DNA of 64,000 bases from the human T2T-CHM13v2.0 reference genome, Homo sapiens. The stretch lies in the NCBI RefSeq assembly GCF_009914755.1, contig NC_060931.1; one strand, given 5' to 3'. Within the stretch, counting starts at the first letter, position 1, and each line of letters starts with the position of its first letter. Position numbers and translations under genes: made by a program. The notes beneath the pieces were generated by a model. The model had not been told where the DNA came from. It made no database searches and saw only the letters and a list, made by a program, of their open reading frames with translations. Positions 39,457 to 41,634 of the stretch are shown one piece after another.

Positions 39457-40260
39457 TTATATTTATATGTGTGGATGATGCCATTCAAGGTACCAAGCTA
39501 ACCCTTCAGGATGGGGGCTGGGGTACCTTATGCCTCTCAGCATTGGAGACATAATGCCTTCTTCCCTCCTCTCCTTACCTCTCCCTCTCTTTTTGAGACA
39601 ACGTCTTGCTCTGTTACCTAGGCTGGAGTGCAGTGGTGTGATCCTATGGCTCACTGCAGCCTTGAAGTGGGCTCAATAGATCCTCCTGCCTCAGCCTCCG
39701 AGTGCTGGGATGACAGGCATGAGCCACTGTGCCCAGCTCCGCCCTTTCTTTCACAAGACGTGGGTAGAGCACCCTCTTGTGGTGAAGGGAGGAAGGGGGC
39801 TGAGTGTGCTCTGGGCCTGGCCGGAAGTTTCTAGGATGCAGCAGGCCTTCCTCCTTGGCCTGGCAGGGGTGGGGCCTGCCAGGGAGTGCCTTGCTGGGAA
39901 GGGAGGGCAAAGGGCCATGTCTTTCGCTTGCTCCACCCAGCTGCCAAGAGTCCCAGTCACCAGGCCACCCTAAGTCCCAGCCCTTGAGGGTAAGTGTTCT
40001 TCTGAACACAGCTGCCTCGTCCTTCCCTGATGACTGGGTGAGAATTCTTTGCTCCCTGGAGGTCCAAATACCCTGCCCACGCTGCTTGCATTGAGGCCAG
40101 GCAGTGGCCACACCATCCACCTCCTCTTCCTTTCCATAGGTCCATGAGACTGGGGCAGCAGCAGGGGCAGGTACAGAGCACCTCAGCCGCCTCTCCACCT
40201 GACAGCAACATCAAAGCCGAGGCCAAGGCGGGAGGGCCCAGAGTGAGACACCTCTTCCAG

Positions 40261-40398
40261 ACAAGACTTGGTCGCTGCCTCCTCCTCTGTCACCCTGCGA
40301 CACAGCCCAGAGTACCAGGCGGCTGGAGCACTGGGGGACACCCGGACAGAACCCTCCCTGGACCAAGTCCTCCAGGAACGGGATGAAGCCATTGCCAA
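40261..40398 (+). pseudogene. BICDL3P: ABHD11-AS1/BICDL3P exon, ends ...EPSLDQVLQERDEAIA(K)
   Basis: Donor AA|gtaagg at 40399. The 5' boundary is uncertain (AG at 40260 or 40139). RDEAIAK matches the BICDL1 C-terminal coiled coil as I recall it. Confidence 0.7.
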
Positions 40399-40626
40399 GT
40401 AAGGGGAAGCTGCTTTTGGGGGCTGGGAGGGGAGTTGGGGGCTCCCCTGCAGGGCCTTGTCCTGCTAATGGAGGAGCGGGGGGCTAGTCAGGCATTCTGG
40501 AAGGAAAGCCACACAACCAGCTGCCCTTCACTGAGGCGGGGGCTGTGGCCATACTCGTCCACCCCCAGGACCTCACAACCAGACCCACAGGGTCCGAGCC
40601 TCAGCTACTCTCTCTGCCACCCACAG

Positions 40627-40747
40627 GAAGCAGGCGGTGGAGGCGGAGCTGCAGAGATGCAAAGCCAGGCTACACGCCATGGAGGCCCAGCTGCTGGAGG
40701 TCCTGGAGGAGAAACTGAGGCTGAGGCGGGAGCTGGAGGCCTGGGAG
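40627..40747 (+). pseudogene. BICDL3P: ABHD11-AS1/BICDL3P exon KQAVEAELQRCKARLHAMEAQLLEVLEEKLRLRRELEAWE
   Basis: cacag|G and GAG|gtaggg, phase-compatible with both neighbours. Heptad pattern with the BICD-family K..L..ELEAW motif. Confidence 0.85.
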
Positions 40748-40828
40748 GTAGGGGAATGCCATCAGGGCCTGGGAGGTGTGGGGAAAGAGGGCACAGGCTC
40801 AGCCTTGAACCTGCTCTCCTGTCCACAG

Positions 40829-40972
40829 GAGGACGTGCAGCAGCTGGTGTGGCAGCAGGTCCAGAATCAGCTGCAGAGAGAGGCCAAGGGTACTCGGGGA
40901 GCCCACGTGGACCCTGGAGCTGCCAGCACCCCCCGATCCAGATTCTCCCTGGGTCGGGGACGTTGGTGGTGA
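40829..40972 (+). pseudogene. BICDL3P: ABHD11-AS1/BICDL3P last exon EDVQQLVWQQVQNQLQRE...STPRSRFSLGRGRWW*
   Basis: ctcctgtccacag|GAG acceptor, open to TGA at 40970-40972. Resembles the BICDL2 tail (STPR..RFSL). Confidence 0.85.
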
Positions 40973-41007
40973 CACAGACCTCAGCCCAGGACTTTGGGAG
41001 TAGTGTC

Positions 41008-41634
<627 letters not shown>

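What the first reader, a model, noticed from the sequence alone, without database searches (positions are those of the whole stretch)
40247..40972. The ABHD11-AS1 lncRNA keeps an intact spliced frame for a BICD-like cargo-binding coiled coil, with a Kozak ATG for a 70-aa microprotein
Seen: three exons (..40398, 40627-40747, 40829-40972) have canonical, phase-matched GT-AG junctions. They give 138 stop-free codons from 40247: ...LDQVLQERDEAIAKKQAVEAELQRCKARLHAMEAQLLEVLEEKLRLRRELEAWEEDVQQLVWQQVQNQLQRE...STPRSRFSLGRGRWW*. The ATG at 40679 sits in an optimal GCCATGG context and would give 70 aa spliced. The 81-nt intron is also in frame and stop-free (97 aa if retained). Upstream the frame is broken (TGA at 40244-40246 and 40145-40147), and an out-of-frame ATG at 40144 could act as a uORF. 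Knowledge: this aligns by eye with the C-terminal coiled coil of the dynein adaptors BICDL1/BICDR-1 (RDEAIAKKNAVELEL..QLLDAIQQKL.L..QLEAWQDDM, Rab6-binding) and BICDL2 (Rab13-binding). I recall the locus being relabelled BICDL3P, so the homology itself is probably known. Inference: a cargo-binding domain without the dynein-binding half could be a natural competitive inhibitor of Rab-dependent dynein transport. Effects attributed to the lncRNA might then be peptide-mediated.
Basis: partly seen in the sequence, partly recalled or inferred. Interest (0 to 1): 0.8.

Follow-up and report, generated by a model that had tools for sequence, protein, structure and literature searches.

The report
Truncated BICDL3 cargo-binding gene remnant
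The "lncRNA" ABHD11-AS1 is the tail end of a third BICD-like transport-adaptor gene: its cargo-binding helix appears to be kept as protein in most placental mammals, but in humans it has no usable upstream start and is probably a transcribed pseudogene.

Summary
Exons ..40398, 40627-40747 and 40829-40972 join through GT-AG sites into 138 stop-free codons. ATG 40679 (GCCATGG) gives 70 aa spliced, 97 aa with the intron retained.

The spliced peptide matches residues 464-552 of BICDR-1/BICDL1 (E 1e-13). This includes the lysine that Rab6 binding needs (K512 there, AAA 40712-40714 here).

New here: about 90 short predicted proteins from placental mammals carry the same helix. Its variants are more conservative than chance (0 of 10000 simulations; intron and tail controls match chance). 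Reconstructed exon-2 codons differ mainly at third positions. So the helix looks selected as protein in mammals.

The human copy looks disabled. TGA 40145 and 40244 close the frame upstream, and no exon-1 frame delivers an AUG. ATG 40679 is valine in 75 of 89 relatives and is the fourth AUG of the RefSeq transcript. Human-lineage replacements outnumber capuchin-lineage ones 8 to 2.

No paper found reports a peptide. Best reading: a transcribed unitary pseudogene of a conserved cargo-binding-only BICDL3 gene. The homology is already annotated; the human microprotein remains unsupported.

The parts
39917..39973 (+). ATG-started 18-codon ORF in the exon-1-like DNA, closed by TAA 39971-39973. Its frame is the one that 8 mammalian gene models use as their N-terminus.
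   Evidence: My working notes give the ATG as 39918; the sequence shows 39917-39919.
39968..39989 (+). RefSeq exon 1 of BICDL3P, with a GTAAGT donor at 39990. In human the three frames here are closed (TAA 39971, TGA 39985) or lack an ATG.
   Evidence: Hub table
40140..40246 (+). 5' part of exon 2, poorly conserved. It holds ATG 40144 (80-aa out-of-frame ORF) and the in-frame stops TGA 40145-40147 and TGA 40244-40246. Both stops are Arg in the capuchin model P0020.
40247..40398 (+). Open part of exon 2. The conserved coding block starts near 40304 (SPE..) and the predicted helix starts at about 40358 (P0015 residue 31).
40331..40333 (+). In-frame CTG (Leu22 of P0015) with G at -3 and +4, inside an invariant A-L-G. 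A candidate near-cognate start; speculation only.
40399..40626 (+). Intron 2 (GT..AG, 228 nt)
40627..40747 (+). Exon 3, the most conserved part of the helix. Both of its boundaries fall at the same residues as in fish BICDL1 genomic ORFs.
40657..40659 (+). Out-of-frame ATG (G at -3) 22 nt before ATG 40679. It opens a 93-aa ORF that overlaps the whole 70-aa ORF.
40679..40681 (+). In-frame ATG in a GCCATGG context, the start of the proposed 70-aa peptide. It sits at a core 'd' position of the coiled coil and is Val in most mammals.
40712..40714 (+). AAA = Lys73 of P0015, aligned with K512 of BICDR-1 (needed for Rab6 binding). It is Lys in 89 of 89 relatives.
40748..40828 (+). Intron 3 (81 nt), in frame and stop-free in human. 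It is much less conserved than the exons.
40829..40972 (+). Exon 4 coding part: the end of the helix (to about 40890), a weakly constrained tail ending in R-W-W, and the stop TGA 40970-40972.
41015..41020 (+). ATTAAA on the + strand, a possible poly(A) signal for transcripts that run past the stop. The AATAAA of ABHD11 lies on the other strand at 41008-41013.
   Evidence: read directly

Best explanation
**What it is.** The three exons are the last three coding exons of a third BICD-family-like gene (BICDL3). It arose by gene duplication, because the exon-3 boundaries match those of BICDL1.

**What it encodes.** The exons encode one long helix, residues 31-108 of the spliced peptide. The helix is modelled as a parallel, in-register dimer. 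It corresponds to residues 464-552 of BICDR-1/BICDL1, the Rab-binding end, and includes the lysine that Rab6 binding requires. No dynein-binding half is present at this locus.

**In mammals generally.** Across placental mammals the helix appears to be kept by selection on the protein. It therefore is, or until recently was, translated as a short cargo-binding-only protein. Such a protein would occupy a Rab on a vesicle without recruiting a motor.

**In the human lineage.** The frame cannot be entered from upstream. TGA 40145 and 40244 close it, and exon 1 gives no usable AUG. The ATG at 40679 is a recent Val-to-Met change in the middle of the helix. Replacements have also accumulated faster than in the capuchin lineage.

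**Most likely status.** The human locus is a transcribed unitary pseudogene, and the RNA measured as ABHD11-AS1 is its transcript.

**Shown:** the homology, the exon structure, the helix, the conservation pattern and the human stops.
**Inferred:** translation in other mammals, Rab binding, the decoy action, and loss of function in human.
For: **Homology.**
- The spliced peptide P0015 matches BICDR-1 (6f1u_X) with E 1e-13, residues 25-120 against 464-552.
- It is 40% identical to a fish BICDL1 over 101 residues, E 9e-19.
- Lys73 aligns with K512. K512M abolishes Rab6 binding (PMC2876961, passages read).

**No motor half.**
- Full-length fish BICDL1 carry PF28219/PF04849 plus PF27654. The short mammalian proteins carry PF27654 only.
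- tblastn of 4 fish BICDL1 proteins on the window hits exon 3 only.

**Relatives.**
- 11 + 64 + 10 proteins were found in three word-indexed searches.
- 44 proteins at E<=0.001 were found in the exhaustive search.
- Sets overlap; 89 proteins in all carry the exon-3 motif, and all 89 keep Lys73.
- Named species include xenarthrans, carnivores, whales, ruminants, horses, a rhinoceros, bats, a pangolin, rodents, a tree shrew and a capuchin.

**Protein-level selection.**
- In 34 placental rows, single-step variants in residues 31-102 have mean BLOSUM62 +0.55 against a null of -0.24 (sd 0.17). 0 of 10000 simulations reached this. With the 31 non-primates alone, 1 of 10000 did.
- The controls match the null: tail 5335 of 10000, and intron 3 read in frame 7096 of 10000.
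- Mean pairwise identity over 66 pairs is 0.89 for exon 3 and 0.46 for the intron-3 core.
- Codons rebuilt from two reading frames of the same DNA cover 24 exon-2 codons. They differ at positions 1:2:3 as 1:1:5 (human-seal), 0:2:8 (human-ruminant) and 1:1:5 (seal-ruminant).
- 33 of 34 placental rows end at the same W-rich C-terminus despite several whole-codon length changes.

**Structure.**
- AlphaFold2 on 17 sequences gives one helix at residues 31-108 with pLDDT 97-99.
- The homodimer model scores 0.56, against 0.10 for the best of 3 controls.
  - This mark was reached by 21 of 30 proteins solved as pairs of one chain and 0 of 23 solved as single chains (microbes).
  - On eukaryotes it was reached by 17 of 29, but by only 1 of the 7 with no older solved relative.
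  - The runs agree in at least 73% of contacts, and the partner pLDDT is at least 67. The alignment was not used.
  - The pass may come from memory of solved BICD coiled coils.

**Human disablement.**
- Both TGA positions are Arg in capuchin model P0020.
- Met62 is Val in 75 of 89 relatives.
- There are 8 human-derived against 2 capuchin-derived replacements (Tajima chi-square 3.6, p 0.058).
- RefSeq calls the locus a transcribed pseudogene (hub table).
Against: - The 138-codon human frame itself has no stop or frameshift.
- Three of the four human departures at columns that are at least 90% conserved are hydrophobic-for-hydrophobic changes at core a/d positions: V62M, V80L and M87V. Continued constraint would look the same.
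- The relative-rate excess is not significant (p 0.058; binomial 0.109).
- The ATG context is strong, and spliced contigs run through the stop codon.
- No mammal shows a conserved AUG upstream of the helix. Of 30 named models, 21 hit the exon-1-like DNA: 8 in one frame, 8 in a second, 4 in the third and 1 in two frames. The ancestral start is therefore unknown. A non-AUG start, still available in human, is not excluded.
- Exon 4 lacks a coding-type pattern. Differences at positions 1:2:3 are 15:6:6 (human-whale, 46 codons), 7:6:2 (human-Tupaia, 31) and 4:5:4 (Tupaia-whale, 31).
- All non-human proteins are pipeline predictions or ORFs from unnamed contigs, not observed proteins.
- The two-frame codon reconstructions pair related species rather than identical ones: two seals, and reindeer with goat or yak.
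Confidence: 0.6

Rival explanations
1. Human ABHD11-AS1 is translated from ATG 40679 into a 70-aa peptide (97 aa with the intron kept). This peptide binds a Rab and competes with full-length BICD or BICDL adaptors, so effects ascribed to the lncRNA are peptide-mediated.
For: - The ATG has a strong context and the frame runs open to a stop.
- The peptide keeps Lys73, the K512 equivalent.
- A motor-less C-terminal fragment of BICDR-1 interferes with Rab6 traffic (PMC2876961, passages).
- Spliced contigs that cover the ORF exist.
- CPC flagged NR_026690 as the only potentially coding entry in a curated lncRNA set, although for the 80-aa ORF (PMC4158813, passage).
Against: - The Met is Val or Ala in 83 of 89 relatives.
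- It is the fourth AUG, and an out-of-frame AUG with G at -3 lies 22 nt upstream.
- The peptide keeps only residues 62-87 of an interface modelled over 29-87. It is also far shorter than the tested fragment 382-577.
- Its C-terminal 29 residues evolve like the neutral control.
- No paper in the library reports footprints or peptides.
- The RefSeq transcript ends before the stop codon (hub table).
Confidence: 0.15
2. The whole helix is translated in all mammals, human included, from a non-AUG start just upstream. The candidate is CTG 40331-40333, which has G at -3 and +4. This would give a protein of about 110 aa, and the gene would not be a pseudogene in human.
For: - No conserved AUG precedes the conserved block in any model, and exon 1 is read in all three frames.
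- Conservation begins abruptly near this point, with A21, L22 and G23 at 31-33 of 33.
- The human frame is intact from 40247 on.
Against: - There is no direct evidence of any kind; the start is inferred from conservation and context only.
- The human lineage shows 8 replacements against 2.
- Curators classed the locus as a pseudogene (hub table).
Confidence: 0.1
3. The exons are conserved for an RNA or DNA-level reason, such as splicing signals, lncRNA function or regulation of ABHD11. They are not translated in any living mammal, and the frame is only a relic of an old BICDL gene.
For: - Exon 4 shows no third-position excess. Its first 20 codons are conserved at all three positions, with third-position differences at 0-1 of about 20 sites.
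- No start codon is conserved.
- The literature treats the transcript as non-coding (PMC8938790, passages).
Against: - Variants in the helix are far more conservative than random nucleotide change, while the intron and tail controls are not.
- Exon-2 codons differ mostly at third positions.
- Length changes in the tail are whole codons, and the stop position is kept in 33 of 34 rows.
- No Rfam family matches the exons below E 0.7.
Confidence: 0.08

Closest known systems
BICDL1 (BICDR-1, CCDC64), C-terminal Rab6-binding coiled coil
   Same: - The sequence matches over residues 464-552 (E 1e-13).
- The lysine equivalent to K512 is invariant.
- The exon-3 boundaries fall at the same residues as in fish BICDL1.
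- Both carry the precomputed domain PF27654.
   Different: - It lacks the whole N-terminal dynein/dynactin- and kinesin-binding part.
- It is about 110-200 aa in other mammals against 577 aa.
- The Rab partner is unknown.
- The human copy has no upstream start.
BICDL2 (BICDR-2, CCDC64B)
   Same: It belongs to the same family. NCBI names several of the short mammalian models 'BICD family-like cargo adapter 2'.
   Different: - BICDR-2 prefers Rab13 (PMC2876961, passage). I could not test which paralogue this locus is nearer to, because no mammalian BICDL2 sequence was in reach.
- One BICDL2-like fragment (P0092, my label) scored only E 8.8e-5.
The experimental fragment BICDR-1C (residues 382-577)
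   Same: It is a cargo-binding end without the motor-binding half. It binds Rab6-GTP directly, clusters Rab6 and impairs neurite outgrowth, and K512M abolishes this. This is what a natural BICDL3 protein would work like.
   Different: It is an overexpressed laboratory construct. It is longer than the conserved BICDL3 helix and much longer than the human 70-aa ORF.
Transcribed unitary pseudogenes annotated as lncRNAs
   Same: The locus has a spliced, expressed transcript. Orthologous loci elsewhere carry intact predicted ORFs. The human frame cannot be reached from an upstream AUG.
   Different: The conserved domain itself carries no disabling lesion in human, and even the intact orthologues have no agreed start codon.

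Membership tests
BICDL (BICD-related) family, C-terminal domain PF27654 | Significant sequence similarity to the C-terminal cargo-binding coiled coil | tested here: met
   E 1e-13 to BICDR-1 residues 464-552; 40% identity, E 9e-19, to a fish BICDL1. PF27654 is precomputed for the relatives, but it is not in the local Pfam copy, whose scans found nothing above cut-off.
BICDL (BICD-related) family, C-terminal domain PF27654 | The conserved lysine needed for Rab6 binding (K512 of BICDR-1, K785 of BICD2) | tested here: met
   Lys73 aligns with K512. It is Lys in 89 of 89 relatives. The role of K512 comes from PMC2876961 (passages).
BICDL (BICD-related) family, C-terminal domain PF27654 | Shared exon-intron structure, showing a duplicated gene rather than a processed copy | tested here: met
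   Fish BICDL1 genomic ORFs P0093-P0097 and P0099 break at the same two residues as exon 3 here. Introns with GT-AG sites are present.
BICDL (BICD-related) family, full-length dynein adaptor | N-terminal dynein/dynactin-binding coiled coil (HAP1_N-type, PF04849 / PF28219) | tested here: not met
   The short mammalian proteins list PF27654 only. tblastn of 4 full-length fish BICDL1 proteins on the 64-kb window hits exon 3 only. The queries are distant, so weak remnants could be missed.
BICDL (BICD-related) family, full-length dynein adaptor | Binding of a GTP-bound Rab | not testable with these tools
   No Rab reference sequence of animals is offered to the complex tool; a pull-down is needed.
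BICDL (BICD-related) family, C-terminal domain PF27654 | Parallel dimeric coiled coil | tested here: inconclusive
   There is a single helix at residues 31-108 with pLDDT 97-99. The homodimer model scores 0.56 against a best control of 0.10 and is in register (52:52, 59:59, 66:66). The pass may come from memory of solved BICD coiled coils.
Translated small ORF (micropeptide) in a lncRNA, for the 70-aa ORF | Start codon conserved and reachable by scanning | tested here: not met
   The residue is Val in 75, Ala in 8 and Met in 5 of 89 relatives, with 1 unmatched. The ATG is the fourth AUG of the RefSeq exon chain.
Translated small ORF (micropeptide) in a lncRNA, for the 70-aa ORF | Ribosome footprints or peptides | not testable with these tools
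   No data tool was available. Five literature searches found no report. Supplementary ORF catalogues were not read.
Translated small ORF (micropeptide) in a lncRNA, for the 70-aa ORF | Coding-type conservation over the ORF | tested here: inconclusive
   The exon-3 part lies in the selected core. The exon-4 part shows no third-position excess, and the tail matches the null.
Unitary pseudogene | Orthologues with an intact, selected ORF in other species | tested here: met
   These are predicted proteins only.
Unitary pseudogene | Disabling lesions in the human copy | tested here: inconclusive
   The upstream frame is closed by TGA 40145 and 40244, both Arg in capuchin. There is no lesion inside the conserved 138 codons, and the ancestral start is unknown.
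Unitary pseudogene | Relaxed constraint on the human lineage | tested here: inconclusive
   There are 8 human-derived against 2 capuchin-derived replacements, p 0.058. No foreign DNA was available for dN/dS.

The most novel reading that the evidence does not exclude
BICDL3 is a living gene for a natural Rab decoy: a cargo-binding-only member of the BICD family, conserved across placental mammals, that starts at a conserved non-AUG codon (candidate CTG 40331). If so, human ABHD11-AS1 and mouse Abhd11os still make a dimeric protein of about 110 aa. That protein would sequester a Rab from dynein adaptors. Part of the cancer and neuroprotection effects ascribed to these 'lncRNAs' would then be protein-mediated.
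Probability: 0.12. Interest if true: 0.8.

Novelty: new variant of a known kind. Interest (0 to 1): 0.5.

Why it matters
ABHD11-AS1 is treated as a purely non-coding "onco-lncRNA" (review PMC8938790, passages). Its mouse counterpart Abhd11os is reported as a neuroprotective lncRNA (same review; PMC5787881, passages).

If the helix is a selected protein in most mammals, overexpression and knock-down studies need start-codon and frameshift controls. This applies most to rodents, where the frame is kept in the rodent models found here.

A natural BICD-family member with a cargo end and no motor end would also be a new kind of regulator of Rab-dependent transport.

For the human genome the practical result is more modest. 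The pseudogene label looks right, and the proposed 70-aa peptide rests on a young, poorly placed start codon.

Tried and rejected
- **Pfam.** Scans of the window ORFs and of three orthologues found nothing above cut-off. PF27654 is not in the local copy.
- **Single exons against the PDB.** Exon 2 alone gave only designed alpha-repeat proteins, which I judge to be chance matches. Exon 4 alone gave nothing.
- **DNA of other mammals for dN/dS.** A genome-contig scan matched 203 pattern stretches and a viral-contig scan matched 121; none was confirmed. I therefore rebuilt codons from database ORFs that read the same DNA in two frames.
  - Linking worked for Tupaia exon 4 (31 codons).
  - It worked for a whale over 46 of 48 codons with P0003. 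P0048 and P0052 broke at codons 39 and 34, and five toothed-whale rows broke at codon 4.
  - It worked for seals (32 codons) and for ruminants (24 codons, after a first try failed at codon 4).
  - It failed for a pangolin-like pair.
- **Rfam.** The scan of 39500-41500 found only Alu-type SRP, microRNA-like and other weak matches outside the exons, plus one chance-level hit in exon 3 (E 0.75).
- **Francelle et al. 2015.** This original Abhd11os paper is not held, so I could not see whether they tested for a protein.
- **Literature searches.**
  - Searches for BICDL3P and BICDL3 found 4 papers; only the alias passage in PMC11951875 was read.
  - ABHD11-AS1 was paired with micropeptide (20 papers), Ribo-seq (4), open reading frame (45), PhyloCSF (1) and ribosome profiling (4). 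From the listings, and from passages of PMC11265036 and PMC5438641, none reports a peptide.
  - Supplementary tables were not opened. Published Ribo-seq ORF catalogues may list this locus.
- **Rejected reading: processed pseudogene.** Introns sit at the positions of the parent family.
- **Rejected reading: chance ORF.** Homology and conservation exclude it, although openness alone would occur in 2-3% of shuffles.
Full report
**Observation.**
The exon ends carry canonical signals: 40398|GTAAGG, CACAG|40627, 40747|GTAGGG and CACAG|40829. The three pieces give 138 codons and TGA 40970-40972.

The single in-frame Met is ATG 40679 in the context CACGCCATGG. It gives 70 aa spliced and 97 aa with the 81-nt intron retained. 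TGA 40244 and TGA 40145 close the frame upstream. ATG 40144 opens an 80-aa ORF in another frame.

Openness alone is weak evidence in 64.5% G+C DNA. 377 of 20000 shuffles and 538 of 20000 Markov simulations were open, and the other five frames carry only 1-2 stops.

RefSeq NR_026690.1 ends at 40899, before the stop codon (hub table). However, a database ORF from 22 unnamed contigs (P0015) equals the spliced human peptide from TTG 40268 to the stop. Longer spliced RNAs therefore exist. ATTAAA at 41015-41020 could serve them as a poly(A) signal.

**Homology.**
Exon 3 alone finds PDB chain 6f1u_X (BICD family-like cargo adapter 1, 577 aa) at residues 480-523 with E 2.2e-5. The spliced peptide finds residues 464-552 with E 1e-13. 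A fish BICDL1 aligns at 40% identity, E 9e-19.

Joining exons 2 and 3 restores the A-I-A-K-K motif that BICDR-1 has at 480-484. This supports the splice junction.

Lys73 of the peptide (AAA 40712-40714) aligns with K512. Schlager et al. 2010 (PMC2876961, passages read) report the following:
- Residues 382-577 of BICDR-1 bind GTP-locked Rab6 directly.
- K512M abolishes this binding.
- BICDR-2 prefers Rab13.
- The overexpressed C-terminal fragment clusters Rab6 and reduces neurite outgrowth.

Genomic ORFs of fish BICDL1 (P0093-P0097, P0099) break at the same residues as exon 3 here. The locus is therefore a duplicated gene, not a processed copy.

Full-length fish proteins carry PF28219/PF04849 plus PF27654. 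The short mammalian proteins carry PF27654 only. tblastn of four fish proteins on the window hits exon 3 only. No motor-binding half is visible at this locus.

**Relatives.**
Three word-indexed searches returned 11, 64 and 10 proteins. One exhaustive search returned 44 at E<=0.001. The sets overlap, and 89 proteins in all carry the exon-3 motif.

The named ones are predicted proteins of 85-260 aa. They come from sloth, armadillo, seals, mink, wild dog, fox, whales and dolphins, pig, goat, yak, reindeer, horses, a rhinoceros, bats, a pangolin, squirrels, a mole-rat, murid, cricetid and heteromyid rodents, a tree shrew and a capuchin. Two more distant rows (P0098, P0100; 58% identity over 78 residues) are of unknown origin.

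I chose 39 rows for an alignment. Three had no anchor (P0005, P0031, P0037) and were dropped, which left 36 rows, 34 of them placental.
- Residues 31-102 align with one gap (sloth).
- Many columns are invariant, including Lys73 (33 of 33 non-human rows; 89 of 89 overall).
- The tail (103-131) varies and changes length by whole codons.
- 33 of 34 placental rows still end at the same W-rich terminus.

**Is the conservation protein-level?**
No DNA of other mammals could be fetched, so I used three indirect tests.

1. *Conservativeness of variants.* Single-step variants in residues 31-102 were compared with random single-nucleotide non-synonymous changes.
   - For the 34 placentals, observed mean BLOSUM62 is +0.55 against a null of -0.24 (sd 0.17); 0 of 10000 simulations reached it.
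   - For the 31 non-primates, 1 of 10000 did.
   - The controls behave like the null: tail 5335, N-flank 9405 and intron 3 read in frame 7096 of 10000.
2. *Segment identity.* Among 12 ORFs that read through intron 3 (66 pairs), mean identity is 0.89 in exon 3, 0.72 in the first 22 residues of exon 4, 0.56 in the tail and 0.46 in the intron core.
3. *Rebuilt codons.* Some database ORFs read the same DNA in another frame, which fixes the codons.
   - Over 24 exon-2 codons, differences at positions 1:2:3 are 1:1:5 (human-seal), 0:2:8 (human-ruminant) and 1:1:5 (seal-ruminant). This is the pattern of a coding sequence.
   - Exon 4 does not show it: 15:6:6 (human-whale, 46 codons), 7:6:2 (human-Tupaia, 31) and 4:5:4 (Tupaia-whale, 31). 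In its first 20 codons third positions hardly change at all. I cannot explain this.
   - The samples are small, and the frame pairs come from related species rather than identical ones.

**Structure.**
AlphaFold2 on 17 sequences gives a single helix at residues 31-108 (pLDDT 97-99) with disordered flanks.

A two-copy model scored 0.56 against 0.10 for the best of 3 controls.
- The contacts are in register and parallel, at the a/d positions 31, 34, 38, 41, 45 and so on to 87.
- The mark was reached by 21 of 30 proteins solved as pairs of one chain and 0 of 23 solved as single chains. On eukaryotes it was reached by 17 of 29, but by only 1 of 7 without an older solved relative.
- The runs agree in at least 73% of contacts, and the partner pLDDT is at least 67.
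- The pass may come from memory of solved BICD coiled coils.

**The human copy.**
With the RefSeq exon chain, ATG 40679 is the fourth AUG. It follows 40144, 40383 and 40657. The last of these has G at -3, lies 22 nt upstream and opens a 93-aa overlapping ORF.

The Met codon is Val in 75, Ala in 8 and Met in 5 of 89 relatives, with 1 unmatched. Three of the five Met rows are the human forms, one is primate-like and one is unnamed.

The capuchin model reads Arg at both human TGA positions.

In the exon-1-like DNA, human frames are closed by TAA 39971 or TGA 39985, or have no ATG.

Against the capuchin, with non-primates as outgroup, 8 replacements are human-derived and 2 capuchin-derived (chi-square 3.6, p 0.058). 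A primate-like ORF differs from human at 10 of 84 residues. From general knowledge of primate divergence this is about what neutral change would give; I did not compute it.

Against decay, the 138 codons have no lesion. Three of the four human changes at highly conserved columns (V62M, V80L, M87V) are conservative core changes.

**An open problem.**
No mammal shows a conserved AUG ahead of the helix. Of 30 named models, 21 hit the exon-1-like DNA: 8 in one frame, 8 in a second, 4 in the third and 1 in two frames. Exon 1 is therefore conserved as DNA, not as protein, and the N-termini are pipeline choices.

Either each lineage uses its own AUG, or translation starts at a non-AUG codon. CTG 40331, with G at -3 and +4 inside an invariant A-L-G, is a candidate. 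This is speculation.

**Literature.**
BICDL3 and BICDL3P occur in 4 papers; the one passage read gives them only as an alias.

The first review of ABHD11-AS1 treats it as non-coding, with no occurrence of 'coding potential' or 'open reading' in its text (PMC8938790, passages).

A review of lncRNA-encoded peptides cites ABHD11-AS1 only as a microRNA sponge (PMC11265036, passages).

One 2014 paper notes that WBSCR26 (NR_026690) was the only entry of a curated lncRNA set that CPC scored as coding. It names the 80-aa ORF, which is the other frame (PMC4158813, passage).

Searches pairing ABHD11-AS1 with micropeptide, Ribo-seq, ribosome profiling, open reading frame and PhyloCSF found no report of a peptide (listings plus the passages named). 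Supplements were not read, and the original Abhd11os paper is not held.

**Verdict.**
The new result is that the cargo-binding helix behaves as a selected protein across placental mammals. The human copy has lost any upstream entry to the frame and shows signs of relaxation.

The most likely reading (0.6) is a transcribed unitary pseudogene of a short, motor-less BICDL3 gene. A non-AUG-initiated full helix is the boldest reading still open (about 0.1).

Noticed in passing
window 40829-40888 (first 20 codons of exon 4): Reconstructed Tupaia and whale codons differ from human and from each other almost only at codon positions 1 and 2. Third-position differences are 0-1 of about 20. The exon-2 core, by contrast, shows 22-35% third-position divergence. 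Synonymous sites here seem constrained for an unknown reason, such as a splicing enhancer or an RNA element, or the sample is simply too small.
   Followed up: partly
window 40733-40747 (end of exon 3): Five models or ORFs (P0002, P0058, P0069, P0070, P0072) lack the last five residues of exon 3. This fits an in-frame alternative donor 15 nt upstream at a Glu|Val (GAG|GTG) junction. Human and capuchin have Leu (CTG in human) at that Val, which would remove the GT.
   Followed up: no
window 39844-39977: The DNA around and upstream of RefSeq exon 1 is well conserved in mammals (tblastn identities 57-81%; frame tally). Different species' models read it in all three frames, so it looks like a conserved promoter, 5'UTR or enhancer rather than coding sequence. 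RefSeq lists enhancers at 39844-39893 and 39904-40083.
   Followed up: partly
window 40387-41019 (+) and 40605-41012 (-): Stop-free frames of 210 aa and 135 aa overlap the finding in other frames. This illustrates how easily long ORFs arise in this G+C-rich stretch.
   Followed up: no
window 41155-41437 (-) and 39593-39737 (-): There are sub-threshold matches to Metazoa_SRP and to Alu-derived microRNA families. These are Alu elements in the ABHD11 3'UTR and upstream of BICDL3P.
   Followed up: no
proteins P0010, P0075 (source label jgi): Contigs from a metagenome source encode this mammalian locus, including downstream sequence. Host DNA evidently sits in metagenome assemblies. I did not trace it.
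   Followed up: no
window 40140-40147: The capuchin model lacks one codon here relative to human. This fits a 3-nt difference that removes both ATG 40144 and TGA 40145. It is inferred from the protein only.
   Followed up: no
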